IMG/VR virus record: IMGVR_UViG_2806310979_000001
Span: 32,001 to 96,000 of that record
Reading direction: 5' to 3' (one strand)
Source: a virus
Lineage: Duplodnaviria > Caudoviricetes
DNA length: 64,000 bases
Below, in pieces: positions 9,388 to 29,466 of this stretch (positions are counted from its first letter, which is position 1; every line of letters starts with the position of its first letter). The notes beneath the pieces were generated by a model. That model saw only the letters and a program-made list of their open reading frames with translations. It did no database searches and had not been told where the DNA came from. Made by a program: the position numbers and the translations under genes.

Positions 9388-10034
9388 TCCCTGATGTGAA
9401 ATTAAATGGAAAATCTGTTCGTGAGATGGGATGGATTCGGGAAAATATTGATTTTCCGACACCACAGTCCCAAACGAATACAATCGTTGTTCCGGGAAGA
9501 AATTCTCCAATCCGATATACAGAAGCGTTAGGAAGGGTATCGTATCAGCCACGGAGTTTTACCATTGTTTTGTCAATGCTAGGTACCAGAAAGCAATATG
9601 ATCAGAAGGTTTCCGAACTTGTGAATCAATATGCTGGAAAGCTGATTAAGGTAATCCGTTCTGAAGAAACCGATGTATATGCACTTGGGACTGTAGAGTT
9701 TGTCCCTGTATATGATCCGCTGCTTAGAAAAGGCACAATCACGTTGGAGTGTACGGATGGAGATTCCTATTTTTACCATGTGAAGGAAAGTGAAGCCGTG
9801 ATTTCTGGAAGTGGCACGGTTACACTTCAAAACGATTTTATGCCTGTGGTTCCGGTAGTGATCACCACAGGGGAGACCGCATTTTCTTGGAGAATAGGAG
9901 AAGATACCTATGAAAAATCCGTAAGTGCCGGAACATGGGAGTTCCCGGAAATGGAACTTGGAGCAGGGGAAAACCGCCTGAGTGTTAAGGGAGAGGGTGT
10001 CACAACATTCCGCTATCGGGAGGGGAGATTATGA
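9384..10034 (+). CDS. Distal tail protein (Dit)
   Basis: Follows TMP; IVVPGRN, L..GEN.L.V.G, FRYREGRL end. Confidence 0.8.
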   Translation: MIPDVKLNGKSVREMGWIRENIDFPTPQSQTNTIVVPGRNSPIRYTEALGRVSYQPRSFTIVLSMLGTRKQYDQKVSELVNQYAGKLIKVIRSEETDVYALGTVEFVPVYDPLLRKGTITLECTDGDSYFYHVKESEAVISGSGTVTLQNDFMPVVPVVITTGETAFSWRIGEDTYEKSVSAGTWEFPEMELGAGENRLSVKGEGVTTFRYREGRL

Positions 10035-14187: not shown

Positions 14188-15684
14188 ATGCAAATTGAAG
14201 TCAGAAAAGCTGATATGGGAAAAGAGAAAAAACGTTTAAAAGTCTGTGCATATGCGAGAGTATCCACGGAAGCATCTGAGCAAGAAAATTCATTGGAAAA
14301 TCAAGTGTCTCATTATACAGAGATGATTCAGTCCAATCCAGCTTATGAGTTCGCAGGTGTTTATGCAGATTTTGGAATTTCCGGTTTTAAGGAAAGCCGC
14401 CCTCAGTTTCAGAAAATGATGCAGGATGCGAAAAATGGAAAGATTGATTTGATTATTACAAAATCTGTATCACGGTTTGCCAGAAATACCGCAATCGTTC
14501 TGAAGGCTTCCAGAGAGCTGAAGGAACGAAATGTCGGTATTTTTTTTGAACTACAAAACATCAATACGCTTACGGAAGCGGGGGAATTGCTGCTTACCAT
14601 ATTGGCAGCATTTGCACAAGCAGAAAGTGAATCTGCAAGTGAGAGTTCCAAGATGGCTTATTTACACCGCATTGAGAACGGAGAAGTCGTAGCCTATTTG
14701 GAAAGATCTTATGGATATGAAAAAGATGAAAATGGAGAATATAGGGCAAAAGAACCAGAAGCGTCCGTTATCAGGGAAATTTATGATTTGGTAATTCAGG
14801 GCGTGAACTGCACGAACATTGCAAGAGTATTGAATGCAAGAAATATTCAGACCGTTCAGGGGGCAGAATGGACAGCGAGTACCGTTTTCCGCATTGTGGA
14901 AAATGAAATTTACAAAGGTGATGTTCTTATGCAGAAAACTTTTATAGATGGGAAAAGACACCAAGTGCAGAATCGCGGCGAAAAAGCCATGTACTATGCA
15001 AAAGACAATCATCCGCCGATTGTATCGGAAAAAATATGGGAAAAAGCACAGCGGAAGCTGGAAGACATGAGGGCAGAAAGAGCCGAACACTCTGTGATTC
15101 AGGAATTCACGGAAGAAAATTATCCTTACATGAATCATATTTTTTGTGCAAAATGCGGATGGCCTTTGAAGCCACGGGTGTACAGTCATAGGCATCGGCT
15201 TTCTTGGGATTGCTCCGGACAGAAGAGAGGGACAAAAAAATTCTGTACAGGCATTCACGTTTTGGATAATGATTTACGGAAAATGAAGATTGAAGGAAAC
15301 AGATATTTTTCAGAAACCGTAGATAAGTATGGAGAGGTACATTTAAAGCATGTAGGTGAGAGGACATGGAAGAATAAGCATAAAAAGAAAAAATTCAATC
15401 ACAAAGATTTATATCCAGAATTAAATGAGGAAAATTATCCGTACTATAGACGATTGTATTGTGCAAGATGCGGAAGCAGGCTTGGACGGTATATTTCACA
15501 TGGAACAGTAAGATGGATATGTTCGAGCTATAAAAGAAAGGGGCAGACAAAATGTCCGGGAGTCCGTATTCCAGATGAAATTATAAAGGGATGGAATCTG
15601 CCTGATGGCAAAATATATATTATGGGAAAGGAAGATAAAAATGGCGAGAAGCATTACAGTTATACCAGCGAGTCAGCCTTATAG
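14188..15684 (+). CDS. Large serine recombinase 1 with duplicated Zn-ribbon
   Basis: AYARVST, TKSVSRFARN, YGY, NEIYKG; EENYPY..IFCAKCG and EENYPY..LYCARCG. Confidence 0.93.
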   Translation: MQIEVRKADMGKEKKRLKVCAYARVSTEASEQENSLENQVSHYTEMIQSNPAYEFAGVYADFGISGFKESRPQFQKMMQDAKNGKIDLIITKSVSRFARNTAIVLKASRELKERNVGIFFELQNINTLTEAGELLLTILAAFAQAESESASESSKMAYLHRIENGEVVAYLERSYGYEKDENGEYRAKEPEASVIREIYDLVIQGVNCTNIARVLNARNIQTVQGAEWTASTVFRIVENEIYKGDVLMQKTFIDGKRHQVQNRGEKAMYYAKDNHPPIVSEKIWEKAQRKLEDMRAERAEHSVIQEFTEENYPYMNHIFCAKCGWPLKPRVYSHRHRLSWDCSGQKRGTKKFCTGIHVLDNDLRKMKIEGNRYFSETVDKYGEVHLKHVGERTWKNKHKKKKFNHKDLYPELNEENYPYYRRLYCARCGSRLGRYISHGTVRWICSSYKRKGQTKCPGVRIPDEIIKGWNLPDGKIYIMGKEDKNGEKHYSYTSESAL

Positions 15685-17038
15685 AGTGGGTGGCAGGAGT
15701 CAGCAGAAAACGAGAAACCTTCAGGTAGCGGCATATTGCAGGGTTTCTACAGATCAGGAAGAACAGTTGAACAGTTTTGAAAATCAAGTCGAGTATTACA
15801 CAAAATATATTCAGGAAAATCCATTATATCAGATGGCAGGCATTTATGCAGATGAGGGAATTTCAGGCACAAATACCAAAAAGCGTGAGGAATTTAAACG
15901 TATGATTCGTGACTGTGAAGAAGGGAAGATTGACTTAGTCATTACAAAGTCCATATCAAGATTTGCCCGTAACACGCAGGATTGTTTGGAATATAGCAGA
16001 AGGTTAAAAAATCTTGGAATCGGAATATTTTTTGAAAAAGAGCATATCAACACTTTAGATGCATCAGGAGAATTATTGTTTACTATATTGTCTTCGCTGG
16101 CTCAGGACGAATCAAGAAATATTTCGGAGAACTGCAAATGGGGCATACGAAGTAAGTTTAAAAAGGGAATTCCGCAGGTGGACTGTACGAAATTTCTCGG
16201 ATATGATAAAGGTGAGGATGGGAAGCTGATTGTAAATCAGGAACAGGCAAAAATAGTGAAGCGAATTTATCGGGAGTTTTTGGATGGCTATAATCCGGCT
16301 GCTATTGCGAAAATGCTTATGGAGGATCATATCAAGACTGGTACAGGCAGGGAAGAATGGAGAAGTGCATCTGTAAAGGCTATTTTAAAAAATGAAAAAT
16401 ATATGGGTGATGCCCTTTTGCAAAAAACTTATACAGCAGATTTCCTTACCAAGAAAGTAAAAAAGAATCATGGGGAAGTGGAGCAGTTTTATGTAAAAGA
16501 GAGCCACGAAGCAATCATTCCAAAAGAACAATGGGAAGCGGTACAACTTGAATTGGAAAGAAGGGATTCCTACATGCAGGAATTGGGATTGACTTTCTAT
16601 GGATATGGCTCGGAGGTCAACCCATTTTCTTGCAGGGTAGTCTGTGGAAAGTGTGGTGCAGTTTGTGGGAAGAAAAGTTGGAAAAGCAGGGGAGTAGAGT
16701 TTTGGCAATGTAATAACAGAAGTAAAAATCATGGAGTGAAAGGATGTGCCAGTGAGAATCTCCCGCATGAAAACCTGCTTAAGGGGTTTATCACGGCGTG
16801 GAACCAGATTGTTGCGGAAAGAGAACAATATCTTCCAAAATGGGAGAAAAAGAAGAAGGAAGGAAATCCGTTAGAAAAACTTCGTGCAGAACAAATGATA
16901 GAATTGACGTTGCAACCGCCTCTTACAAAGATGTTACCAGAACTTGGACAGATGGTTTTGGAAAGGGTAATTGTACAGGGGAAAGAAATAATGGTGATTC
17001 GCTTTTTGGATGGTACGGAGATTAAGGTAAGGATATAG
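15641..17038 (+). CDS. Large serine recombinase 2
   Basis: AAYCRVST, YADEGISGT, TKSISRFARN, NEKYMGD, HEAII, CGKCG Zn ribbon. Confidence 0.95.
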   Translation: MARSITVIPASQPYRVGGRSQQKTRNLQVAAYCRVSTDQEEQLNSFENQVEYYTKYIQENPLYQMAGIYADEGISGTNTKKREEFKRMIRDCEEGKIDLVITKSISRFARNTQDCLEYSRRLKNLGIGIFFEKEHINTLDASGELLFTILSSLAQDESRNISENCKWGIRSKFKKGIPQVDCTKFLGYDKGEDGKLIVNQEQAKIVKRIYREFLDGYNPAAIAKMLMEDHIKTGTGREEWRSASVKAILKNEKYMGDALLQKTYTADFLTKKVKKNHGEVEQFYVKESHEAIIPKEQWEAVQLELERRDSYMQELGLTFYGYGSEVNPFSCRVVCGKCGAVCGKKSWKSRGVEFWQCNNRSKNHGVKGCASENLPHENLLKGFITAWNQIVAEREQYLPKWEKKKKEGNPLEKLRAEQMIELTLQPPLTKMLPELGQMVLERVIVQGKEIMVIRFLDGTEIKVRI

Positions 17039-17047
17039 GCTCTGAGG

Positions 17048-17977
17048 TTATTCCAACAGAGCCATATTTTCTTCGGTTTCTTCCGTAAAAATAGCGAGCT
17101 GTCCATCAACCATATCATCTTCGAATACATCGGTATTTTCTGATGTTTCAATATCCGCCTTTTTTCCTCGTGGAGTTTTATGAGCGTAGAGGGTATCCAT
17201 GCGGAGAGGGTGTTTGGATTTTTTGTTATAGGCAATCAGAATCGCTTCTGCAAATCCAAGAGATCCTCCGCGGCGTTCTCTTGCCTGACGTCCAATTTCA
17301 CGGACAGAAACACGGCCAACCCTTTCTTTGAAAGTGGTATCACTCATTTTATCTCCGAAAGCATTATCTAACCTTGCGACTGCGTTCAGCATATTGGAAC
17401 TGAAGGACATAGGTGCGCCTTCCCAAGTGGCCACGCATAAGCGGAGTACACGGTCAAGAGTATGGAAACCATATTTGTCATATATGTTTACCAATGTTGA
17501 TACCGCACAGATTCCGCCGGGGTGAGAAGAGGATGTGATAGATAAATCATAGGATTCCACTAAATCTTTGATAATCAATTCTTTTTCGCTTCCAGCCTCA
17601 ATGTTAGCCATGAAGATTTCATAAGGCAGCAGGGGCTTTACATATTTCATTTGGTTAGCAAAGATATCTGCTTCCTGAGTATAATTTAAATCATCATAGA
17701 TCATACACCAGACAGGAGTTTCACGGGAACCGGATACCAATGCCACGATTTCAATAGTATGCTGTCCATTAAACACATAATTAATGCCATTCCTACGGCT
17801 TACCTTTACAGGATTGATTTGATACAAATCGAAGTTTGCAGCCGCTTTTTCAACATGGCGCAAAGATAGGTTCCTTTGATAATTTTGGTCTGAAACAAGG
17901 TTTTTAATAGGTATCTGTTCAAAATGAACGTTTGGGACATATCTTTGTAATTCTTCAATATTTTCTTCCATAATCAT
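17048..17977 (-). CDS. ParB/DGQHR-fold protein (DUF6551-like)
   Basis: L.SDQNYQR, PVKVSRR, YVFNGQHT, EADIF. Confidence 0.7.
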   Translation of the reverse strand: MIMEENIEELQRYVPNVHFEQIPIKNLVSDQNYQRNLSLRHVEKAAANFDLYQINPVKVSRRNGINYVFNGQHTIEIVALVSGSRETPVWCMIYDDLNYTQEADIFANQMKYVKPLLPYEIFMANIEAGSEKELIIKDLVESYDLSITSSSHPGGICAVSTLVNIYDKYGFHTLDRVLRLCVATWEGAPMSFSSNMLNAVARLDNAFGDKMSDTTFKERVGRVSVREIGRQARERRGGSLGFAEAILIAYNKKSKHPLRMDTLYAHKTPRGKKADIETSENTDVFEDDMVDGQLAIFTEETEENMALLE

Positions 17978-18927
17978 GCTTCCTCCAAAATCTTTGTAAT
18001 TTTATCAATTACAGTCATTAGATTACTCAGTTGTATTTTTAAACGCTTTTTTCCTTCTTTAGAAGAACGTTGGAAATCAGTCACATTCATTACCCGTTCG
18101 ATGGAGCTGCACCAAGAAGGAATTGTGAGAGAAAGACTGGAAAGCTCGGCATCGGGATCAAATTTTGGCATTTGCTTGATGACGGGTTTCGGCTCTGCGA
18201 TTTTTTCCTTTTGGGTTGGAGCAACAACTTTTCTCCATTGAAGTTCACGCTTCATATCAGGATAGCTCAGATGTTCAATGCCTTTTTCAATCATGTAATC
18301 ATATAATTTTTTGAGTTCATAATGAGGCAGTCGGGAAAGCTCAATAATATTGGCGTGAGAAATGCGAAGTTTACCGGAACGGATTCGTTCTACCATTTGG
18401 GGAGTTTTCTCGCAAATATTATCCAATGCGCGACTATATTCATTGTATTTGTACACGGAAGCAGGAGATGTGTTGCATTCAGATGCTATCTGTGTTGCGG
18501 AAATGTGTCTGCAAGGAATTTTCTTTTCTATACGATATGTATGACCGCCTTTTCCGGTGGTGGAATTTTCAGATGAAATACGGGCAGTAATCGCTTTTAC
18601 GGCATCATATTTCTTTCCAATCACATATTTACGGTTGGCTTCTGTAAGGTCTTCACGTTTAAGTTGCTGTGTGCAGATCCATGAGATTGCATCCTCCCGG
18701 CTTAAAAAGTACATGCGTTTGATACGAAATTTGACTCCTCGTTTATGACAGATTTGATATGCTTCAACTCCATCCACAATCAATCCATTCCAAGTGTAAA
18801 TTGGATCACTGTATGCGTGGGAGCTTATTTTGCGTTCCAGTGATTTATGTTCGCGATCTTCTAAAGGCTGAATGAGATTTGTAAATTCCAGATCAAGTTT
18901 AAGGGTATAGTTGTTATAGTTACTCAT
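17974..18927 (-). CDS. ParB-like protein with HTH and degenerate GxxR motif
   Basis: EFTNLIQPL, DPIYTWNGLIVDGVEAY (canonical DGHNR), QLKREDLT, ATQIASECNTSPASV HTH. Confidence 0.7.
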   Translation of the reverse strand: MSNYNNYTLKLDLEFTNLIQPLEDREHKSLERKISSHAYSDPIYTWNGLIVDGVEAYQICHKRGVKFRIKRMYFLSREDAISWICTQQLKREDLTEANRKYVIGKKYDAVKAITARISSENSTTGKGGHTYRIEKKIPCRHISATQIASECNTSPASVYKYNEYSRALDNICEKTPQMVERIRSGKLRISHANIIELSRLPHYELKKLYDYMIEKGIEHLSYPDMKRELQWRKVVAPTQKEKIAEPKPVIKQMPKFDPDAELSSLSLTIPSWCSSIERVMNVTDFQRSSKEGKKRLKIQLSNLMTVIDKITKILEEA

Positions 18928-19325
18928 AATGTTTGTTCACTCCATTCAGTATTCTGTTGCATAGAAGGGGACGTTTCCAACATGGAAAACTGTATAACTC
19001 CTGCTTTGGAATTAAATTGCCCATATAAGCGGAAAATATTTCCATATTCCCAACCGCAGTCTACAGTCATCATGGTTTGTAATAAATCTTTACAGTATAA
19101 TTCATAACTGTATCCTGTTTCAAAACGATATTTTCTAACTTTATGTGCGAGATAATCCCGTTTATCGCCAGCCTTTATTGCTATCATTTTGGCATTGGGA
19201 TTAATCAGTAGCTGAATATAATCAGGATCACCGAGAAGCCGTAGTGTATTACGATGAACACGAATAAGGCTCTTTTTTAAATCAATACTCAGGATGGGTT
19301 GATATAGATTTTCTCGACTCATCAT
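18924..19325 (-). CDS. Hypothetical protein, paralogue of LSR3 C-terminal domain
   Basis: LRLLGDPDYIQLLINPNAKMIAIK and W...FRLYG match the two upstream proteins. Confidence 0.75.
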   Translation of the reverse strand: MMSRENLYQPILSIDLKKSLIRVHRNTLRLLGDPDYIQLLINPNAKMIAIKAGDKRDYLAHKVRKYRFETGYSYELYCKDLLQTMMTVDCGWEYGNIFRLYGQFNSKAGVIQFSMLETSPSMQQNTEWSEQTL

Positions 19326-20067
19326 CTAGCACCTCACTTTCGTTTGGGACTGGTATCTGCTCCGGTATAGGAGACTGTGTTTTCTTTTTTTCATGGACAT
19401 CAAATACTGCATATCCATCAAAAATATTGATCTGCAGGGCATTTTGATGCTCTTCGACAGGGACTCCGAATTGATTCTGCCACTCAGAAGGATAGCTTGC
19501 AGTTCGGGATACTCTTGGCTTTTCTCCTTCTTTGGAAGTGCGCATGAATATTTCCGGGGTTGTCAGGTCAAAAATGAATAATACTTCATCGCCGGATCGG
19601 ATGAGTTTTCCTAAAAGTTTGTAACGATAGTTAGGATTCCAGTTCATCAAAGAGATAACTTTCGCAAAGAATATCCGGCAGGTGATTTGTTTTGGATTTT
19701 TCTTTTTTCCTGCTGAACACCAACGGAAAGAGTCTTTTTCTTCCTCACGGCATGGCCTTACAGCAAGTTTTTTTTCTTCTGGATTTACGAGTATCTGTAC
19801 ATATTCTACAGAAGGAAGTTTTTTTATACAGGCCATATTTACAGATACTTTGTAATTGTTAAATGTAAAGGAAGGCTCAAATGTATGGGCGAAAAATTCG
19901 CCACGGACAACTTGATATCCATCAAAGCTGAAATCCATATCTTCAATGAGATCAGATTGTCCATCTTTTCCCGGCGTGATAGTTACTGGCAGGGGATTTT
20001 GAGGTTTGCTCATATCTTCGGGAATATTTTGTGCCAGTTCCCATGTGTTTACAGGTGTGTCAGTCAT
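19282..20067 (-). CDS. Hypothetical protein, standalone paralogue of LSR3 C-terminal domain
   Basis: GYQVVRGEFF, LAVRPC, WNPNYRYKLLG, YPSEWQNQFG shared with 20060-21928. Confidence 0.8.
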   Translation of the reverse strand: MTDTPVNTWELAQNIPEDMSKPQNPLPVTITPGKDGQSDLIEDMDFSFDGYQVVRGEFFAHTFEPSFTFNNYKVSVNMACIKKLPSVEYVQILVNPEEKKLAVRPCREEEKDSFRWCSAGKKKNPKQITCRIFFAKVISLMNWNPNYRYKLLGKLIRSGDEVLFIFDLTTPEIFMRTSKEGEKPRVSRTASYPSEWQNQFGVPVEEHQNALQINIFDGYAVFDVHEKKKTQSPIPEQIPVPNESEVLDDESRKSISTHPEY

Positions 20068-21928
20068 TACGATTCTCCTTTATTTCTTCCATAATTTCCA
20101 CGATTCCTTTCGTAAGATCCGCTTTGGACGTGGTATGCAGTTCTGATTCCTTATAGGGTTGTCCTTCAGAGGTGATCTGCCAATTCTTATTATTGGTAAA
20201 AGCAACCAGTTCTCGTGCGTGGGTTTGACTATAATAATTGTTTCCAAAGCTATTCATCCATTCTGCCGGATAGCCGAGGATAGTTTTAGGCGTGGAAGAA
20301 GCCTCTGCTGATTTATTAGGGGAATCTTTGTCTGTTGTTGCAGGTACTTCATTCGGAATGCGTACTTCGGTTTCTTTCATATTAAAAATCAGAACATTTT
20401 CAGATCCCTTTTGATGTGCTACTCCGAGAACACGGTATTTGCAGTTGGGATTCCAACCAAACAATTCATAAAGTGTTGGTAGGAAAGCTGCTCCATATAT
20501 ATAGCGAGGAACCAGAACGCCATTTCGCAGACGCGCCCATTGGACTTTATTTCGATTATCTTCAAGTGTGCAAGGCCGTACAGCGAGAAGATAAGAACTT
20601 GGATGTATCAGCAATTCTACGGTTTTGATTTCTCCAAATTTTCTGAGAGCCTCCGTACTAAAATTTAATTTTTCATAAGACAGAGTTGCTGATATTTTTC
20701 CGGTGGTTTCAAAAAACTGACCATGTGCGATTTCATATCCCCTTAAGTCGAAAGAACCAAGTTGTGCAGTAATGGGGATTGTATCAGAAGGTGTGCTTTC
20801 TGAATCGGATATACTTGATGAAGCGGCACGGTAATCATCTGGTTTGAAGCCGGCCCAACGGGGATTAACTGTGATGAATCCTTTTAATGCTCCATCTGGG
20901 ATTACGTGAAGTTCAGGAAGCAAGGCTTTGTTTCCATATTTAGCATTACTGATTAGTTTTTGAACCGCAATGAAATCGTCTCTTGAAATAATAGCCTCAT
21001 GATGTTCACGTTTTCTATATTGATTACGGTCTTGGTTATTTTTCCGTGACTTATGATCCAGATAATTTGGTGTCCATGTTTTACGGGCAAGAACATCGCC
21101 ACAATGTCTTTCATTTTGTAAAATTTGAAGAATAGAACCGGAAGACCATACTTCATTATTCTTTTTTGTTTTACAGCCAAGTTCCGTAAGTGTGTCAGCA
21201 ATTTCCTGACAGGTATTTCCATTTAAATACATGTAAAAAATCAGTTTTACGATTTTTGCCTCGTGTTCATTAATTTTTAATTCTCCGTTTTCGTCTTGAT
21301 CATATCCAAGCAAAGGTGGTGTCAGGAAAATTCCTCTTCTAAAACGCATCTCAATAGAGGCATTCATGATTTCACTTTTTGTATGACTCTCCTCTTGTGC
21401 AAGGGTAGACATGAAGGAAAGGATCATTTCGCTTTTGGGATCAAGGGTATTTAAATGTTCGGTTTCAAAAAATACACCGACTGGAGGGCGGAGAGAAAGA
21501 AGCTCCCGTACATAGCCGATACAGTCCACCACATTACGGGCAAATCGAGATACGCTTTTTGTGAGGATAAGGTCAATTTTTCCATCTTCGCAGTCTTGTA
21601 CCATCTGTTTGAAGGCTTCTCTATGCTGTAGAGATGTACCGGAAATTCCTTCATCGGCATATATTTTTACGAGATTCCAGTTAGGATTACGATCTACTAC
21701 GTCTTGATAATGATTTTTTTGAAGTTCATATGAGGATGTCTGCCGAGGATCGTCTGTGGAAACTCTGGCATAAACAGCTACCCTTAACATGGAAGATGTT
21801 TTGAATATATCCGGTTTGGGGAGAGCAGGAATGACATCAAGTTCATCTGGATTTATTCCTTTATATCGCTCACGAATGAGAGCTTTCTGCTGTTCGATTG
21901 TTTCAGTTCTTTCTTCATATTCTTTCAT
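20060..21928 (-). CDS. Large serine recombinase 3, no Zn ribbon, atypical C-terminal domain
   Basis: AVYARVST, YADEGISGT, TKSVSRFARN, LLGYD, NERHCGD, HEAIIS; no CxxC after recombinase domain. Confidence 0.93.
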   Translation of the reverse strand: MKEYEERTETIEQQKALIRERYKGINPDELDVIPALPKPDIFKTSSMLRVAVYARVSTDDPRQTSSYELQKNHYQDVVDRNPNWNLVKIYADEGISGTSLQHREAFKQMVQDCEDGKIDLILTKSVSRFARNVVDCIGYVRELLSLRPPVGVFFETEHLNTLDPKSEMILSFMSTLAQEESHTKSEIMNASIEMRFRRGIFLTPPLLGYDQDENGELKINEHEAKIVKLIFYMYLNGNTCQEIADTLTELGCKTKKNNEVWSSGSILQILQNERHCGDVLARKTWTPNYLDHKSRKNNQDRNQYRKREHHEAIISRDDFIAVQKLISNAKYGNKALLPELHVIPDGALKGFITVNPRWAGFKPDDYRAASSSISDSESTPSDTIPITAQLGSFDLRGYEIAHGQFFETTGKISATLSYEKLNFSTEALRKFGEIKTVELLIHPSSYLLAVRPCTLEDNRNKVQWARLRNGVLVPRYIYGAAFLPTLYELFGWNPNCKYRVLGVAHQKGSENVLIFNMKETEVRIPNEVPATTDKDSPNKSAEASSTPKTILGYPAEWMNSFGNNYYSQTHARELVAFTNNKNWQITSEGQPYKESELHTTSKADLTKGIVEIMEEIKENRND

Positions 21929-22052
21929 AGGTCATCAATTCCTTGTATTGCGATTTATTCTCATTATAATTTTTTTGTGAAAAAAAGACATAAACCACCA
22001 GTTAATCAAATAACGGATGGTTTATATAAAGTGAAATGGATTTGTGATTCAA

Positions 22053-22442
22053 TTATAGGTCTTTTAAATTGTTATCTTTTAGAAGTATTGTTTCAATTAA
22101 AGACCAATCATTGCTCCGAAGAATATCCTTTACTGCGGAAAGAATCAGATAGATGAAGCGTTTTTCGTTTTTGGAACAGTCTGCCATAAGTAAGTCAATA
22201 TCTGTTTGATATTCTGTAGGATTGTAAAGCAGATTTCCATAGAGCAGTTCATCCAACGTAATTCCCAGTGCATTGCAGATTTTGATAAGAGATTCTAAAC
22301 TGGGTTTCCGCTTGGCATTTTCAATGTAGCTGATATAGACAGAAGATAAATTTGCCAGTTCAGCTAATTCTTCCGCAGAGATTCCTTGCTGATTTCGGGT
22401 TTCTTTGATGCGGATACCAATTAATGAATAGTTTATAGGCAT
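22053..22442 (-). CDS. XRE-family HTH regulator upstream of LSR3 operon
   Basis: IGIRIKETR..GISAEELAE...YISYIENAKRKPSL; RBS AAGGAGGTGA. Confidence 0.9.
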   Translation of the reverse strand: MPINYSLIGIRIKETRNQQGISAEELAELANLSSVYISYIENAKRKPSLESLIKICNALGITLDELLYGNLLYNPTEYQTDIDLLMADCSKNEKRFIYLILSAVKDILRSNDWSLIETILLKDNNLKDL

Positions 22443-22661: not shown

Positions 22662-22874
22662 TTGTCAGAATATGAAGAAGAAATGCTTTTGAAAGAGCTT
22701 CAAAAATGTGGATTACATTTAAGAAAGTTAAAGGAGAAGTTATACCGCTACTGCGAAAAAAGAGTCTTTGTAAAAGGTTCGACAATTTTAAAGATGTATG
22801 CTAAAATTGAAGAAACTCAAAGAGAGTATAACAGACTGGATAATCGTCTGATAGAACTGGAGAATGCACAATAG
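22662..22874 (+). CDS. Small helical hypothetical protein
   Basis: RBS AAGGAAGGTG before TTG; 70 aa coiled-coil-like. Confidence 0.55.
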   Translation: MSEYEEEMLLKELQKCGLHLRKLKEKLYRYCEKRVFVKGSTILKMYAKIEETQREYNRLDNRLIELENAQ

Positions 22875-23000: not shown

Positions 23001-23321
23001 TTGTGTGCAGAGGACTACATAGCTGATCGTCTTGTTGATTTATGTGAAAAGCGTGGATTGACAAAGTATCGTCTTGCTCAACTGACCGGAATGTCCCAAA
23101 CTGCAATTGGAAGCATAATATCAAAAGAGAGTATTCCGACCATACCAACTCTTGAAAAGTTATGCAGTGCCTTCGGCATTACATTAGCGCAGTTTTTTTC
23201 GAATGAGGAGAGTCATCCAAATTTGACAGAGACTCAAAGAGAAATCCTTATGATATGGGATTCGTTGGATGTTGAGGAACGGAAGGTATTCATGACAATG
23301 ATTCGTGGACTGAAGAAATAA
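23001..23321 (+). CDS. XRE-family HTH regulator (copy A)
   Basis: KYRLAQLTGMSQTAI...PTIPTLEKLCSAFGITLAQFF. Confidence 0.9.
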   Translation: MCAEDYIADRLVDLCEKRGLTKYRLAQLTGMSQTAIGSIISKESIPTIPTLEKLCSAFGITLAQFFSNEESHPNLTETQREILMIWDSLDVEERKVFMTMIRGLKK

Positions 23322-23554: not shown

Positions 23555-23878
23555 TTGCTTACAGAAGACTATGTTGCATTGAGGATTATTGAGTTGTGTG
23601 AAAAGCATAAAATTTCAAGATACCGTCTCTCTCAATTGACTGGAATGTCACAGACAGCATTGGGGAAAATTGTTTCAAAAGAAAGTATCCCAACGATTCC
23701 AACTATAGAAAAGATATGTGATGCATTTGGAATTACGCTGGCACAGTTTTTTACCAAAGACGGAATCCGCCCTGACTTATCAGCAGGTCAACTGGAACTG
23801 GTAGAAACTTGGGAGTATTTGGATGATAAAGAGAGGGAGATATTACTTACCTTCGTGCGGAGTTTACAGAAAAAGTAG
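23555..23878 (+). CDS. XRE-family HTH regulator (copy B)
   Basis: RYRLSQLTGMSQTAL...PTIPTIEKICDAFGITLAQFF; close paralogue of copy A. Confidence 0.9.
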   Translation: MLTEDYVALRIIELCEKHKISRYRLSQLTGMSQTALGKIVSKESIPTIPTIEKICDAFGITLAQFFTKDGIRPDLSAGQLELVETWEYLDDKEREILLTFVRSLQKK

Positions 23879-24674: not shown

Positions 24675-24982
24675 ATTCTTTCTATATAAAAGAGTTTCTT
24701 TATAATGTGTACCGAGAGTGAGGTTAAACGGGTGTTAAGACTCTAAAGTTGGATATCCCCCTAGTGCCTGAAACCCGCATAAACTGGGCATTTGTGTCTC
24801 TACATATCGCTATAATTTACATTCTAAAACTGTGCTTAGACGAGGAAATTATTCCCCGTTGTCGTTTCCCTTATTCAAGGGGGTATTTCAAAAAATGTAT
24901 AAATTAGCAAAAGAAGCAATCATTCAGCGTAAGTCAATCTTACTGCAAAAGTCTAATAAATCAGCAAAAGGAGAAGAAGCCT

Positions 24983-25524: not shown

Positions 25525-26631
25525 ATGAAAAGATATCAATATATAGATTTATTTTGCGGTTGTGGCGGATTAAGCCTTGGATTTGAGCAAGCAGGTTTTA
25601 TTCCTAGGGCTGGAATTGATTTTAAAGAGTCAGCAATAAATACTTACAGGAAACATTTTAAGAATGCAAAAGCGATTTGCGTAGATATTTCATCAATGGA
25701 TGAGGAAAGAATAAAGAAAGAATTAGGGGATTTAAGTAAAATCGATGTTATAATCGGGGGACCGCCTTGTCAGGGGTTTTCAAATGCAAATAAAAATTTT
25801 GTAGAAGAGGATGATCCAAGGAATAAATTATTTTTTGAATTTATGAAATTTGTTGACTTGGCACAACCTAGTGTTGTGGTCATAGAAAATGTACCGCAAA
25901 TTATTACAAAGAATAATGGCTATGCAAAGAAACGAATTACAGAAATTTTTGAAGAGCGTAAGTATAATGTAATCAATGCTATACTAGATGCGTCAGATTA
26001 TGGAGTTCCACAAAAAAGAATGAGGAATTTCTTTATCATAACAAAAGGAGTTTCTTTTGATGTTAGTAGAATAGTAAAAAATCATGAAAAAATAACGGTA
26101 AAAGAAGCGATTGGCGAGTTATATGAGTTCGAAAATCAAGATAAGAATTCGGAGGTTGTTTTAAAATATCCTCCTGTAACAGAATATCAACGCTACTTAC
26201 GGGCGAGTGATGGAATAGTAAAAAATCATGATATCCATTACCCAGCAGAAATTCAACAAAAACGTATTTCATATGTACCACAAGGGGGAAATTGGAAAGA
26301 CGTACCAGAAGAATTGTGGGAGACAAAGCGAACACAAAAGACAGGTAGAAAAAATCGGCATTCATCAGCATACAAAAGATTAAAGGAAGATGATGTATCA
26401 GTTACAATTGATGCTGGAAATCAGCATAGTAACTATTATCATCCAATTTATAATAGAATACCTACAGTGCGGGAAGCAGCAAGAATACAATCTTTTCCGG
26501 ATGATTTTGTTTTCGAGGGAACAATGACAGAGCAATATTTGCAAGTTGGTAATGCGGTACCACCGCTTTTGGCAAAATGTATTGCGATGGCGATAAAGGA
26601 GCATTTACAGAATGAAGAAGAAAATAATTGA
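25525..26631 (+). CDS. DNA cytosine-5 methyltransferase M1
   Basis: DLFCGCGG, GGPPCQGFS, ENV, YGVPQKR.R, REAARIQSFPD, QVGNAVPP. Confidence 0.96.
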   Translation: MKRYQYIDLFCGCGGLSLGFEQAGFIPRAGIDFKESAINTYRKHFKNAKAICVDISSMDEERIKKELGDLSKIDVIIGGPPCQGFSNANKNFVEEDDPRNKLFFEFMKFVDLAQPSVVVIENVPQIITKNNGYAKKRITEIFEERKYNVINAILDASDYGVPQKRMRNFFIITKGVSFDVSRIVKNHEKITVKEAIGELYEFENQDKNSEVVLKYPPVTEYQRYLRASDGIVKNHDIHYPAEIQQKRISYVPQGGNWKDVPEELWETKRTQKTGRKNRHSSAYKRLKEDDVSVTIDAGNQHSNYYHPIYNRIPTVREAARIQSFPDDFVFEGTMTEQYLQVGNAVPPLLAKCIAMAIKEHLQNEEENN

Positions 26632-27649
26632 TTTATTTTGTGGTTGTGGAGGACTGAGTTTAGGCTTTGAACAAGCTGGCTTTGAAGTAGCATATGCAAT
26701 CGATATGTGGGATAAAGCCATAATGACTTATAATCATAATCATAAAAATAAGGTGGCAGAATGTAAAGATATACACGAACTGACAGATGAATATTTACAA
26801 CAATTAAATGCGAATGAGAAAATTGTTGGGGTTATTGGAGGACCGCCTTGTCAAGGGTTTAGTAAGGTCGGCACAAGAGATATAAATGATCCTAGAAATC
26901 ATTTATATTTAGAATATTGCAGAGTTGTAAAAACAATATCACCAGATTTTTTTGTGTTAGAAAATGTAGGAGGATTATTAACACTCTGCAAAGGCATGTT
27001 TAAAAATGATATTATTAATAGATTTAGTGAACTTGGATATAATGTTGTTTCCCAGGAAGTCTGCGCAGCAGATTATGGCGTTCCACAAAATAGACATCGA
27101 GTGTTTTTTGTCGGAATGAAAAAAGGAAATTTTTCCTTTCCAGAGAAAAAACACAAAATAATCACGAGTAAAGATGCTATTAGCGATTTACTGCCATTAA
27201 CGATGGAAGACGGTCTTGACGAAATGCATGGGTATGCATGCGCACCACAGAATGCATATCAGAAAAAGATGCGTGGAAATCAAAATATTGTTGCAAATCA
27301 TCAGATTACAGTTCATACACAAAAGACTATTGATATTATTAGTATGGTGCCAGACGGAGGAACAATTTATGATTTGCCAGATGAGTATTGGAATGTAAGA
27401 AAATACAGAAAAGGATTTGAAAGAATGCCAAGTTTGAAACCATGCCATACTGTAGATACTGGGCATAGAAATTATTTCCATTATTCGGAAAATCGCATTC
27501 CAACAGCTCGTGAAAATGCTAGATTACAATCATTTCCAGATAATTATGTCTTTTTAGGGACTAAAACAGATCAATATAAGGAGATTGGAAATGCAGTTCC
27601 ACCAATGTTGGCGTATAATATAGCCAAGGCAATTAGAGAACAGTTATAG
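26612..27649 (+). CDS. DNA cytosine-5 methyltransferase M2
   Basis: DLFCGCGG, GGPPCQGFS, ENV, YGVPQNRHR, RENARLQSFPD, IGNAVPP. Confidence 0.96.
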   Translation: MKKKIIDLFCGCGGLSLGFEQAGFEVAYAIDMWDKAIMTYNHNHKNKVAECKDIHELTDEYLQQLNANEKIVGVIGGPPCQGFSKVGTRDINDPRNHLYLEYCRVVKTISPDFFVLENVGGLLTLCKGMFKNDIINRFSELGYNVVSQEVCAADYGVPQNRHRVFFVGMKKGNFSFPEKKHKIITSKDAISDLLPLTMEDGLDEMHGYACAPQNAYQKKMRGNQNIVANHQITVHTQKTIDIISMVPDGGTIYDLPDEYWNVRKYRKGFERMPSLKPCHTVDTGHRNYFHYSENRIPTARENARLQSFPDNYVFLGTKTDQYKEIGNAVPPMLAYNIAKAIREQL

Positions 27650-27659
27650 GAGGTGCGAT

Positions 27660-28442
27660 ATGGATATATTGGTCTCTAGTCCGGGATCGCCCGGAACCAA
27701 TTTTACTGAAAATGTAAAGGAGCAAATATTACTTATTAGTGATGAACTAGACAAAAATGATGATTTTGCTTCTTTGATGGAGTTAAAAAAGCATTTAGAA
27801 AACTGTGGATTGAATCAAAATTATGTACGAAATATTTTGCCTTTTTTACAGAATTGCGGAATAGTAAAATATGATAATATAGATACATTCAAGAATAGTG
27901 AAATAGTGACCAATATAGGTCGAGCATACGTTGACGTCTTAAAGAGCATAAAGATTGCAAGGAACGAAGAAAAAAGCGAGATTAGAGATGACATTTTGGA
28001 AATGCTTGATAAAATTCAGCAGACGATATATTTTCAATGTCTTACGATTATGATGAAAAATCCTGATTGCAATTATGGTATTGATTTTTTGGATGTGTTA
28101 AGATTTGTTGATATGTATGGTCATATTGATTTAAACGAATATATGCTTATCTTGTACGAAAGAGAAAAAAATGGACATGATTATCTGCGTGATCTACAAG
28201 ATGTAGTTAAAAAATATCGAAATAAAGAAATTGAAATTCATGTAAAGACAAAAACCAAAAATGCTATGGAAGGCGATGGGAAATCTAAGAGCGTAAATTC
28301 ATTTCCATATGTCACAGGAAATTTCTGTAAATCAGGTATCATGAAAAAAATAGATGGAAAGTTTTATTTTGAGGAAAATAGAATTAAGGAAATTGAAAAT
28401 ACAATTGAGGAGGTGGCAAAATGTCGGAATTTAGTGAGGTAG
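27660..28442 (+). CDS. Hypothetical; candidate standalone DNA-recognition subunit (R1) of the restriction complex
   Basis: Lies between MTases and an McrB lacking an N-terminal specificity domain; overlaps McrB start; function inferred from position. Confidence 0.55.
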   Translation: MDILVSSPGSPGTNFTENVKEQILLISDELDKNDDFASLMELKKHLENCGLNQNYVRNILPFLQNCGIVKYDNIDTFKNSEIVTNIGRAYVDVLKSIKIARNEEKSEIRDDILEMLDKIQQTIYFQCLTIMMKNPDCNYGIDFLDVLRFVDMYGHIDLNEYMLILYEREKNGHDYLRDLQDVVKKYRNKEIEIHVKTKTKNAMEGDGKSKSVNSFPYVTGNFCKSGIMKKIDGKFYFEENRIKEIENTIEEVAKCRNLVR

Positions 28443-29461
28443 CAAAAAATAGCATTGTATCCAATATTGAAGACATTAAACAAAGACTGGGATTAGAAGA
28501 TCAAGTTGCAAATGTTATGCAATCCAATAATGATGCTCAAATAAAACATAAAAATTGTATGGAAATTCAGCGGATACCGAGGTCATGTTGTATACATCCT
28601 TTGAATTTTATTATTTATGGTGCACCTGGAACTGGAAAAACATATAATACTGCAGAATATGCTCTCGCAATTATAAATAACAGAGAACCTGATTTATTAA
28701 AGAAAACAGATACTGAACGTAGAAAAATATTGTCAGAATATAAGAAGTATATACAAAAGGGACAAATCGTATTTACTACGTTTCATCAAAATTATGGATA
28801 TGAGGAGTTTATACAGGGATTACGACCAGACCCTGATAAGGATGGAATCTCTTTTAAGACTGTCGATGGAGTATTTAAAAAATTAGCAGATAAGGCCATT
28901 TTAGATAATGATAACAACTATGTAATTATTATTGATGAAATTAATCGTGCTAACATATCAAAAGTGTTTGGTGAACTTATAACATTGATAGAAGAAGACA
29001 AACGCTGGGGAGAATTGAACGAATCTTGTGCTACACTTCAATCTGGAGATGTTTTTGCCGTACCTAATAATTTATACATTGTGGGAACAATGAATTCGGC
29101 AGACAAATCTATTTCGCTTATTGATGCTGCTTTACGTCGAAGATTTTCTTTTATAGAGCAAAAACCAGATGAATCATTAATAGAGGATGATGTCCTGAAG
29201 AATGTATTTTGTGAGCTTAATACACGACTTGTATCAGAACTCGACAGTACAGATTTGCTAATAGGGCATTCATACTTTATGAATAGAAAAAAAGAGGATT
29301 TATGCAAAATTCTTAATACAAGTATAATTCCATTGTTGTATGAATACTTTTATGATAATCGGAAAAAAGTTAGCAATATTTTAGCAGAAGCAATAAAAAA
29401 CACAGATGTAGAAATAGTAGATGACAAGATAGGACGATTGAACGTTAGAAATAAAGGATAA
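28421..29461 (+). CDS. mcrB: McrB-family AAA+ GTPase
   Basis: GAPGTGKT, TFHQNYGYEEF, IIDEINRAN, TMNSAD (NxxD), ALRRRF, IGHSYF. Confidence 0.93.
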   Translation: MSEFSEVAKNSIVSNIEDIKQRLGLEDQVANVMQSNNDAQIKHKNCMEIQRIPRSCCIHPLNFIIYGAPGTGKTYNTAEYALAIINNREPDLLKKTDTERRKILSEYKKYIQKGQIVFTTFHQNYGYEEFIQGLRPDPDKDGISFKTVDGVFKKLADKAILDNDNNYVIIIDEINRANISKVFGELITLIEEDKRWGELNESCATLQSGDVFAVPNNLYIVGTMNSADKSISLIDAALRRRFSFIEQKPDESLIEDDVLKNVFCELNTRLVSELDSTDLLIGHSYFMNRKKEDLCKILNTSIIPLLYEYFYDNRKKVSNILAEAIKNTDVEIVDDKIGRLNVRNKG

Positions 29462-29466
29462 ATGCT

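What the first reader, a model, noticed from the sequence alone, without database searches (positions are those of the whole stretch)
17048..21928. Five-gene operon: serine recombinase with an unusual C-terminal domain, two free-standing copies of that domain, and two ParB-fold proteins
Seen: five minus-strand genes with overlapping stop/start codons. LSR3 has intact catalytic and recombinase domains but lacks the usual Zn-ribbon/coiled coil. Its C-terminus (about 20240-20755) aligns by eye with the next protein: GYEIAHGQFF/GYQVVRGEFF, VELLIHP...LAVRPC/VQILVNP...LAVRPC, WNPNCKYRVLG/WNPNYRYKLLG, YPAEWMNSFG/YPSEWQNQFG. The 133-aa protein carries a third, more diverged copy (YIQLLINP...IAIK, W...FRLYG). 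Established: in canonical LSRs the Zn-ribbon and coiled coil supply half of att recognition and directionality, and ParB folds are nucleotide-gated DNA clamps. Inference: the three paralogous domains (pattern reminiscent of AbrB-like swapped hairpins) hetero-oligomerise and replace the missing targeting/directionality module, with the ParB-fold pair licensing, targeting or partitioning the element. I know of no characterised system with this architecture.
Basis: partly seen in the sequence, partly recalled or inferred. Interest (0 to 1): 0.88.

Follow-up and report, generated by a model that had tools for sequence, protein, structure and literature searches.

The report
Third recombinase module of gut phages
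A very common group of human-gut temperate phages carries a fixed five-gene set: a serine recombinase with a new domain in place of its zinc ribbon, two stand-alone copies of that domain, and two ParB-like proteins; its job is unknown, but it does not choose the chromosomal insertion site.

Summary
Five overlapping minus-strand genes lie at 17048-21928. LSR3 has an intact catalytic and recombinase domain but no zinc ribbon or coiled coil. Its C-terminus (residues 388-592), the 261-aa protein and the 133-aa protein share one domain (profile comparisons 99.6%, 98.0% and 95.8% probability). The same gene order occurs in 95 of 104 related loci; eight others are cut by contig ends.

The window is a Ca. 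Heliusvirales prophage inserted in comEC. The insertion site follows the neighbouring canonical pair LSR1/LSR2, not LSR3. Two natural comparisons show this. Phages with 84-90% (Lachnospiraceae) or 99% (Streptococcus suis) identical LSR3-type genes sit in different host genes and carry different zinc-ribbon recombinase pairs.

Streptococcal phi1207.3/Tn1207.1 carries a split form: Orf2 is the recombinase core and Orf3 is the free domain. The domain is therefore a detachable partner of the recombinase.

The fold is a two-lobed beta-barrel. Its nearest solved structure is MraZ, but only weakly (Z 3.6-4.3).

No function has been shown. My best guess is a second recombination reaction directed at phage DNA.

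This scan found and followed up the same module on other DNA (e1-5199401), with the same conclusion.

The parts
20060..21928 (-). LSR3, 622-aa serine recombinase. Layout: N-terminal extension 1-48, catalytic domain 50-199, recombinase domain 221-327, conserved post-RD motif about 330-366, Ser-rich linker, new C-terminal domain 388-592.
   Evidence: Pfam. Catalytic Y53, R55, S57, R128 and R131 are invariant in 15 diverse homologues. No Zn ribbon.
20153..20767 (-). C-terminal domain of LSR3 (residues 388-592), first copy of the new domain
   Evidence: hhalign against the profile of the 261-aa family: 99.6%, E 1e-24. BLASTP 2e-25.
19282..20067 (-). 261-aa protein, free-standing second copy of the domain (core residues about 40-215) with disordered ends
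   Evidence: AF2 model has pLDDT above 90 over 40-210. The family has 1544 clusters at 50% identity. No Pfam match and no PDB sequence match.
18924..19325 (-). 133-aa protein, minimal third copy of the domain
   Evidence: hhalign A1 against A2: 98.0%, E 1.8e-13. AF2 model shows two beta-beta-alpha-beta-beta lobes. Best structural match is MraZ, Z 4.3.
17974..18927 (-). 317-aa protein, probably a ParB_N-like domain plus HTH. This copy has DGVEAY where about half of the family has DGHxRY.
   Evidence: Weak HTH_7 match and PHROG 21315. ParB_N support is weak. Motif alignment.
17048..17977 (-). 309-aa DUF6551 protein (ParB/DndB-like fold) with an invariant NGQHT motif
   Evidence: Pfam PF20188, E 6e-29; PHROG 1033. 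Faint DGQHR match. Motif invariant in family alignment A6.
22053..22442 (-). CI-like HTH repressor directly upstream, on the same strand; present beside the module in most related loci
   Evidence: Pfam HTH_3, E 1e-17. Present in most loci.
21990..22025 (-). Hairpin followed by a T-run between the repressor and LSR3, then a TATAAT-like box; possibly the module's own promoter
   Evidence: Inverted repeat I4. Sequence read. Inference only.
14188..17038 (+). LSR1 (498 aa) and LSR2 (477 aa), an overlapping pair of canonical zinc-ribbon serine integrases that converges on the module with a 9-bp gap. They are the likely comEC integrase.
   Evidence: Pfam. Co-variation with insertion site. LSR2 is 45-50% identical to the paired recombinases of streptococcal phages.
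24731..24732 (.). Phage attachment junction. To the left is the right end of phage 1. In this record, the left end of a second phage follows (an attP-like hybrid). In other samples, the 3' half of host comEC follows.
   Evidence: Contigs of four runs all break here.

Best explanation
This is a conserved auxiliary site-specific recombination module of Heliusvirales-type temperate phages. It is a third recombinase beside the integrase pair.

Shown:
- LSR3 keeps every catalytic residue of a serine recombinase and keeps the recombinase domain.
- The zinc ribbon and coiled coil are replaced by a two-lobed beta-barrel domain of about 190 aa.
- The same domain is encoded twice more as free proteins.
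- In streptococcal relatives the recombinase core (Orf2) and the domain (Orf3) are separate genes.
- The chromosomal target does not follow this module.

Inferred:
- The domain is a detachable DNA-binding or targeting subunit that works with the recombinase core in cis or in trans.
- The two free paralogues bind accessory or alternative half-sites, or compete with the tethered copy. Either way they would control which sites pair and in which direction. This is the job that accessory sites do for resolvases and that the coiled coil plus a directionality factor does for integrases.
- The reaction is a second one, on phage DNA rather than at comEC. The most likely candidates are resolving or circularising multimeric or tandem phage genomes, or another phage-specific rearrangement tied to lysogeny.
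- The two ParB-like proteins act as DNA-binding partners, possibly nucleotide-gated.
- The fast-evolving parts (LSR3 C-terminal domain, the 133-aa protein, the 317-aa protein) would carry phage-specific DNA recognition. The slow parts (catalytic core, 261-aa protein, DUF6551 protein) would carry the common machinery.
For: Architecture and homology.

Catalytic residues are invariant in 15 diverse LSR3s.

Conservation: the module is complete and in the same order in 95 of 104 loci, and 8 of the others are cut by contig ends. It is also present in divergent phage records.

Split form: phi1207.3 Orf2 matches LSR3 residues 1-358 at 41.5% identity and ends just after the post-RD motif. Orf3 matches the domain profile at 96.2%, E 2e-9.

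The target is not set by LSR3:
- Eleven loci with an LSR1/2-type pair abut the 3' half of comEC, and loci without that pair do not.
- Blautia sp. MSJ-9 has an LSR3 module 84-90% identical to that of R. torques ATCC 27756. Its comEC is intact and it has a different recombinase pair at the other phage end.
- S. suis phages inserted in rum and in comEC share 99% identical orf2 and orf3. Their right-end recombinase pairs are only 36% and 47% identical.

Fold: both AF2 models rank MraZ first, with B3 DNA-binding domains close behind.

Two rate classes over 85 loci (mean pairwise identity): core 0.81, DUF6551 0.72, 261-aa 0.69, against C-terminal domain 0.52, 133-aa 0.50, 317-aa 0.46.

DUF6551 fusions bound CTP or ATP in a published screen (bioRxiv 10.1101/2025.10.10.680097).

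Tandem phages occur, for example in this record and in L054. A resolution activity would therefore have a substrate.
Against: No recombination sites were found. No convincing repeats flank the module. No inversion or deletion variant appears among about 100 loci. No joints lie inside the module in contigs of four runs.

DNA binding by the domain is inferred only from weak fold matches (Z below 5). There is no sequence link to AbrB/SpoVT.

The same fold occurs in lytic phages without recombinases, so the domain need not be specific to recombination.

The streptococcal form lacks the ParB-like genes, so they are not essential to the core reaction.

The co-variation argument shows which genes follow the target. 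It does not show that LSR3 is idle during integration or excision.
Confidence: 0.4

Rival explanations
1. LSR3 with its paralogues and ParB-like proteins is the element's own integration and excision machine, or an obligatory co-factor of it. The three domains would replace the zinc ribbon and coiled coil for att recognition and directionality.
For: The module sits in the lysogeny region next to the repressor and 2.8 kb from the attachment junction. In streptococcal phages orf2 and orf3 lie directly beside attL. All studied phages carry LSR3 together with other serine recombinases, so joint action is possible.
Against: Near-identical LSR3 modules occur in phages inserted in different genes, while the zinc-ribbon pair changes with the target. 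LSR1 and LSR2 are complete canonical integrases related to those of comEC- and rum-targeting streptococcal phages.
Confidence: 0.15
2. The module is a passenger or cargo-handling element. LSR3 would be a transposase-like serine recombinase that moves itself or adjacent cargo cassettes between phages, as the name Tn1207.1 once implied.
For: orf2 and orf3 are 99% identical in S. suis phages that differ in target and in adjacent cargo (mef/msr against tagatose genes). Variable cargo, such as restriction-modification genes, lies next to the attachment site in both phage groups.
Against: The position and orientation are fixed between the repressor and the lysis/integrase end in 95 loci. No terminal repeats or empty sites were seen. 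All five proteins diverge in step with one another, as vertically inherited phage genes do.
Confidence: 0.12
3. The role does not involve recombination. The proteins would form a DNA-binding complex for lysogeny maintenance, silencing, superinfection exclusion or defence, with LSR3 used as a DNA-binding scaffold.
For: The module is on the same strand as the repressor and just downstream of it, a typical place for lysogeny-expressed accessory genes. ParB-like proteins can spread on and silence DNA (general knowledge). The fast-evolving components resemble immunity-type specificity.
Against: All catalytic residues of LSR3 are invariant across homologues down to 50% identity. There is no match to known defence families.
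Confidence: 0.1

Closest known systems
Orf2 + Orf3 of Streptococcus prophage phi1207.3 / Tn1207.1 and phi-m46.1-type phages (sequenced, function never tested)
   Same: Orf2 shares LSR3's N-terminal extension, catalytic domain, recombinase domain and post-RD motif (41.5% identity over residues 1-358). Orf3, the next gene, is a homologue of the new domain (96.2%). The phage type is the same, with a paired zinc-ribbon recombinase at the lysis end and insertion in comEC or rum.
   Different: The domain is not fused to the recombinase. There is only one free copy and no ParB-like genes. The module lies directly beside attL and is preceded by a CpXC protein rather than a repressor.
Large serine integrases (phiC31, Bxb1, A118, SPbeta SprA)
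   Same: Catalytic domain with the Ser nucleophile, followed by the recombinase domain.
   Different: No zinc-ribbon domain and no coiled coil, which are the parts that read the outer att half-sites and set directionality. An unrelated beta-barrel domain stands in their place. LSR3 does not track the chromosomal target.
Resolvase systems with accessory sites (Tn3/gamma-delta res, Sin, beta recombinase)
   Same: A serine recombinase whose selectivity could come from extra DNA-bound subunits. This is an idea only.
   Different: Those systems use more copies of the same enzyme, or HU/IHF, bound at mapped accessory sites. Here the extra subunits would be separate paralogous proteins, and no sites are known.
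MraZ / AbrB-SpoVT swapped-hairpin barrels and plant B3 DNA-binding domains
   Same: Two beta-beta-alpha-beta-beta lobes in one chain. MraZ is the top structural match for both models: Z 3.6 (rmsd 3.9, 99 aligned) and Z 4.3 (rmsd 2.9, 84 aligned). B3 domains score Z about 3.
   Different: The scores lie below the level where chance arrangements are common. There is no Pfam or profile signal. The domain has extra C-terminal elements, including a conserved YPxxWxxxFG tail, in LSR3 and the 261-aa protein.
ParB-CTPase-fold proteins including DUF6551 fusions and DndB
   Same: The 309-aa protein is a DUF6551 family member. Such fusions bound CTP or ATP in a screen.
   Different: There is no ParA, no recognisable parS, and NGQHT stands in place of the usual arginine-rich box. 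The 317-aa protein is only weakly ParB_N-like and has lost the DGHxRY motif in this phage.

Membership tests
Large serine recombinase (serine integrase) | N-terminal resolvase catalytic domain with Ser nucleophile and Arg cluster | tested here: met
   PF00239, E 6e-27. Y53, R55, S57, R128 and R131 are invariant.
Large serine recombinase (serine integrase) | Recombinase domain (PF07508) | tested here: met
   E 5e-26, residues 221-327.
Large serine recombinase (serine integrase) | Zinc-ribbon domain with embedded coiled coil | tested here: not met
   No PF13408 match in LSR3 at E 0.1, whereas LSR1 and LSR2 match it. No CxxC pairs follow residue 330 (sequence). The whole C-terminus is accounted for by the new domain.
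phi1207.3-type Orf2/Orf3 module | Zinc-ribbon-less recombinase core with the same N-terminal extension and post-RD motif | tested here: met
   tblastn 41.5% identity over LSR3 residues 1-358. Orf2 is 370 aa.
phi1207.3-type Orf2/Orf3 module | Gene for the free-standing domain directly downstream | tested here: met
   Orf3 against A1: 96.2%, E 2.3e-9. Orf3 against A2: 92.8%.
AbrB/SpoVT/MraZ swapped-hairpin barrel | beta-beta-alpha-beta-beta unit, paired into a barrel | tested here: inconclusive
   The topology is present twice in both AF2 models. MraZ is the top match at Z 3.6 and 4.3 only. Foldseek against PDB gave nothing below E 0.01.
AbrB/SpoVT/MraZ swapped-hairpin barrel | Sequence or profile match to the family | tested here: not met
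   No Pfam family in any of 71 members. hhalign of either half against the SpoVT N-domain gave probability below 1%.
ParB/Srx (ParB-CTPase) fold | Match to a ParB-fold family model | tested here: met
   The 309-aa protein matches DUF6551, E 6e-29. For the 317-aa protein the result is inconclusive.
ParB/Srx (ParB-CTPase) fold | Arginine-rich nucleotide-binding box | tested here: not met
   The 309-aa family has an invariant NGQHT. The 317-aa protein has DGVEAY where about half of its family has DGHxRY.
ParABS partition system | ParA ATPase partner and parS centromere | tested here: not met
   No ParA-like gene lies in or beside the module in the window or the related loci. No conserved palindrome was found.
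Known anti-phage defence systems | Match to a PADLOC model | tested here: not met
   Nothing at E 0.001 or better. One match at E 0.0076 without any matched stretch of its own.

The most novel reading that the evidence does not exclude
This would be a serine recombinase with an exchangeable targeting subunit. The catalytic core could take its DNA-recognition domain in cis or from free paralogous beta-barrel proteins. The mix of subunits would then set site choice and direction, and nucleotide-binding ParB-fold proteins would gate the reaction. That would be a new way of controlling serine recombination, and a natural modular scaffold for retargeting.
Probability: 0.2. Interest if true: 0.85.

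Novelty: new variant of a known kind. Interest (0 to 1): 0.62.

Why it matters
Ca. Heliusvirales are among the most widespread phages of the human gut. This module is a fixed part of their lysogeny region, and the family of the free domain protein has more than 1500 clusters at 50% identity, none with a Pfam match. Nobody has described what it does.

For the recombinase field, it is a natural case of a large serine recombinase that has discarded the zinc ribbon and coiled coil. Current models treat those parts as the basis of att recognition and directionality. The replacement domain also exists as separate genes and, in streptococci, only as a separate gene.

If the domain proves to be a trans-acting targeting or directionality subunit, it would change how serine-recombinase control is understood and would interest genome engineers. 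If the module merely resolves phage multimers, it is a new accessory architecture for a familiar task.

A practical gain from this work: the comEC insertion of these phages can now be assigned to the LSR1/LSR2 pair.

Tried and rejected
Hetero-oligomerisation is therefore untested.
- Foldseek against PDB gave nothing below E 0.01 for either model.
- PDB sequence and profile searches for the domain and for both ParB-like proteins gave nothing useful.
- Pfam on all 71 members of the 261-aa family found no family.
- hhalign found no similarity between the two halves of the domain, or between either half and the SpoVT N-domain.
- hhalign found no link between the 317-aa family and the DUF6551 family.
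- PADLOC found no defence family.
- Repeat and palindrome scans around the module found no convincing recombination or parS-like sites. They found only a terminator-like hairpin and paralogy between LSR1 and LSR2.
- The promoter and terminator scan found fewer sites than in shuffled sequence.
- Laying contigs of three RNA-library runs and one DNA run showed whole-phage contigs in all of them. Nothing can be said about expression in lysogens. No joints appeared inside the module. The single joint, 17725 to 19404, is a replacement by a divergent allele.
- A scan of viral contigs with a distant 221-aa homologue found nothing. An alignment that was too diverse could not be used for locus search.
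- The Heliusvirales paper does not mention integrases, recombinases or ParB.
- A literature search for zinc-ribbon-less large serine recombinases with ParB found no description.
- I first read the window as a prophage boundary between LSR2 and the DUF6551 gene. I rejected this because the 9-bp junction is conserved inside complete phage genomes.


Full report
**What is there.**
Five minus-strand ORFs occupy 17048-21928. Successive genes overlap by 8, 44, 4 and 4 nt (translations).

LSR3 (622 aa) matches Pfam Resolvase (residues 50-199) and Recombinase (221-327). It does not match the recombinase zinc ribbon. The two recombinases on the other strand, LSR1 (14188-15684) and LSR2 (15605-17038), both do.

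In an alignment of 15 LSR3 homologues down to 50% identity, Y53, R55, S57, R128 and R131 are invariant. A motif just after the recombinase domain (about residues 330-366) is also conserved. The enzyme therefore looks catalytically competent.

**The triplicated domain.**
The LSR3 C-terminus matches the 261-aa protein by BLASTP (2e-25). A profile built from 71 homologues of the 261-aa protein gives these matches:
- LSR3 residues 388-592: 99.6% probability, E 1e-24.
- The 133-aa protein: 95.8%, E 7e-9.
- A profile of 21 homologues of the 133-aa protein: 98.0%, E 1.8e-13 over 112 columns.

The family of the 261-aa protein is large: 2014 word-based hits and 1544 clusters at 50% identity. It has no Pfam, NCBIfam, PHROG or PDB sequence match.

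**Fold.**
AlphaFold models of the 261-aa protein (pLDDT above 90 over residues 40-210) and of the 133-aa protein (mean pLDDT 79) both show two beta-beta-alpha-beta-beta lobes. Foldseek against PDB finds nothing.

An exhaustive structural alignment ranks MraZ (1n0e), a protein made of two AbrB-like units, first for both models. The scores are Z 3.6 (rmsd 3.9, 99 aligned) and Z 4.3 (rmsd 2.9, 84 aligned). Plant B3 DNA-binding domains follow at Z about 3.

These scores are low, and no sequence signal links the halves to each other or to SpoVT. An AbrB/MraZ-like DNA-binding barrel is therefore a reasonable lead, not a finding. In a library of predicted viral structures the fold recurs in uncharacterised proteins of many phages, some of them lytic. 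The best match is Lactococcus phage KSY1 gp105, E 7e-5, TM 0.61.

**The two ParB-like proteins.**
The 309-aa protein is a clear DUF6551 member (E 6e-29) with an invariant NGQHT motif. ParB-fold fusions with DUF6551 bound CTP or ATP in a recent screen (bioRxiv 10.1101/2025.10.10.680097). Distant homologues occur in mycobacterial, Gordonia and staphylococcal phages without this module.

The 317-aa protein is less certain:
- It has a weak HTH match.
- Only 2 of 24 family members touch Pfam ParB_N, at E 0.07.
- Its nearest named ESM-Atlas clusters are ParB_N.
- It has no profile link to DUF6551.

About half of its family carries DGHxRY. The copy in this window has DGVEAY.

**Context.**
Window 1-24732 is 95-99% identical to Faecalimonas phage NatCom_26447 (PV036436, Ca. 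Heliusvirales). That record annotates all five genes as hypothetical. The paper on this phage order does not discuss recombinases.

The source is a 113.5-kb virus record that holds two different phages of this type in tandem. Each has its own set of LSR1, LSR2, the five genes, repressor and Cro.

The order in the window is: lysis, LSR1, LSR2, then the five genes converging on them. Upstream of LSR3 on the same strand lies a CI-like repressor, and Cro-like genes diverge from it. A hairpin with a T-run and a TATAAT-like box lies between the repressor and LSR3.

**Insertion site.**
Similarity to PV036436 ends at window 24732. Similarity to a prophage of [Ruminococcus] torques ATCC 27756 begins at the same base.

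The flanks translate to the two halves of comEC, split inside the conserved GIGHLLAIS|GLH motif. The first 1.6 kb of the 'complete' phage record is host comEC.

In this record the junction joins phage 1 to phage 2, so it is attP-like. Contigs from four public runs all break at 24732, and two of them continue into comEC-like sequence that differs between them.

Eleven related loci with an LSR1/2-type pair abut the 3' half of comEC.

**Which recombinase picks the site.**
Two natural comparisons answer this.

(1) Blautia sp. MSJ-9 carries a module whose five proteins are 84-90% identical to those of R. torques. Its comEC is an intact 820-aa frame on another contig. The phage lacks the LSR1/2-type pair and has a different recombinase pair at its other end.

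(2) Streptococcus suis phages inserted in rum and in comEC have 99% identical orf2 and orf3. Their right-end zinc-ribbon recombinase pairs are only 36% and 47% identical.

LSR2 is 45-50% identical over its full length to these streptococcal paired recombinases. Phi1207.3 is known to insert at a GA dinucleotide in comEC and to encode three serine recombinases (PMC4260502).

The target therefore follows the canonical pair, not LSR3. This contradicts the implicit premise that the module supplies att recognition for the element.

**Conservation.**
In 104 loci from genomes and viral contigs, with the 261-aa protein down to 46% identity:
- 95 hold LSR3 with its domain, the 261-aa gene, the 133-aa gene, the 317-aa gene and the DUF6551 gene in the same order.
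- 8 others are cut by contig ends.
- 1 (L025) looks decayed.

 A more distant homologue (34% identity) sits in the same arrangement. An LSR1/2-like pair is nearby in 75 of the 95.

Over 85 complete loci the mean pairwise identities fall into two classes:

| Slow-evolving | Identity | Fast-evolving | Identity |
|---|---|---|---|
| LSR3 core | 0.81 | LSR3 C-terminal domain | 0.52 |
| DUF6551 protein | 0.72 | 133-aa protein | 0.50 |
| 261-aa protein | 0.69 | 317-aa protein | 0.46 |

**The split form.**
Phi1207.3 Orf2 (370 aa) matches LSR3 from residue 1 to 358 (41.5% identity) and ends just after the post-RD motif. The next gene, Orf3 (138 aa), matches the domain profile at 96.2%, E 2.3e-9.

The same pair sits beside attL in S. 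suis phages, preceded by a CpXC protein. No ParB-like genes are present there.

This fusion-versus-split pattern is the best evidence available here that the domain works physically with the recombinase core, and that it can do so in trans. An earlier follow-up in this scan (e1-5199401, on other DNA) named the same relatives. I checked that claim here, and it holds.

**How it most likely works.**
From here on this is inference. A catalytically intact serine recombinase needs a way to recognise its sites and to control which sites pair. LSR3 has lost the usual parts for both and gained a barrel domain that resembles DNA-binding folds.

My best reading has four parts:
- The domain is a detachable DNA-binding subunit.
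- The two free paralogues occupy accessory or alternative half-sites, or compete with the tethered copy, and so control synapsis and direction.
- The ParB-like proteins are further DNA-bound partners, perhaps nucleotide-gated.
- The reaction acts on phage DNA, not on comEC. It could be resolution or circularisation of multimeric or tandem genomes, or another rearrangement linked to lysogeny.

The fast-evolving trio would then carry phage-specific recognition. That fits with two diverged modules co-residing in this record.

Against this reading, I found no sites, no rearranged variants and no joints. DNA binding is unproven.

The rivals are:
- a co-factor role in integration or excision;
- a passenger or cargo-moving element;
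- a non-catalytic lysogeny or exclusion role.

Each is weighed in its own section above.

**Verdict.**
Oligomerisation and the roles of the ParB-like proteins are untested.

It is a new variant of a known kind (serine recombinases), widespread and uncharacterised. Sequenced relatives have sat in the literature since Tn1207.1 without any functional study.

Noticed in passing
window 24731-24732 (record position 56731-56732): The 113.5-kb source record holds two different Heliusvirales-type phages in tandem, joined by an attP-like hybrid site. Each has its own LSR1, LSR2, five-gene module, repressor and Cro. Locus L054 also shows one module following another.
   Followed up: partly
window 24732 onward in other samples; PV036436.1 1-1634; G001:C39:391671: These phages insert inside comEC, within the conserved GIGHLLAIS|GLH motif. 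The deposited 'complete genome' PV036436 includes 1.6 kb of host comEC at one end. The same host gene is the target of streptococcal phi1207.3.
   Followed up: yes
window 25525-30855: This is low-GC cargo just across the attachment junction: two C5 cytosine methyltransferases followed by genes that another first-stage note in this scan reads as McrB/McrC-like (I checked only the two methyltransferases by Pfam). The layout resembles the SpyI/LlaJI-type restriction-modification cassette described in phi1207.3.
   Followed up: no
window 15103-15159 and 15418-15474 (inside LSR1): LSR1 contains a 57-nt direct repeat 315 nt apart, and Pfam finds two zinc-ribbon stretches. The zinc-ribbon region of LSR1 seems to be internally duplicated.
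   Followed up: no
L019 6721-9960: In one Blautia MAG the LSR3 gene is interrupted by about 1.5 kb, between its N-terminal part (6721-7548) and its C-terminal part (9115-9960). This may be an insertion element or an intron.
   Followed up: no
L007 4311-5644: A near-identical phage has about 1.3 kb inserted in the 228-aa gene between Cro and the attachment site.
   Followed up: no
window 22662-22874 (+): A 70-aa ORF with a heptad-like, charged sequence (by eye; not tested) lies between the repressor and the first Cro-like gene, diverging from the repressor. It may be the first gene of the rightward operon.
   Followed up: no
window 23001-23321 and 23555-23878: Two paralogous Cro-like HTH genes lie in tandem (56% identical; 210-nt direct repeat at 70%).
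   Followed up: no
window 18747-18800 (317-aa protein, residues about 43-60): This phage's copy of the 317-aa protein has DGVEAY where about half of its family keeps a ParB-like DGHxRY. The motif is not conserved across the family, which argues against a universal nucleotide-dependent role for this protein.
   Followed up: partly
model of window 18924-19325: The fold of the 133-aa protein recurs in predicted structures of uncharacterised proteins of unrelated phages, including Lactococcus KSY1 gp105, Klebsiella Menlow, Salmonella PhiSH19 and Bacillus Mgbh1. It may be a widespread phage domain that has not been named.
   Followed up: no
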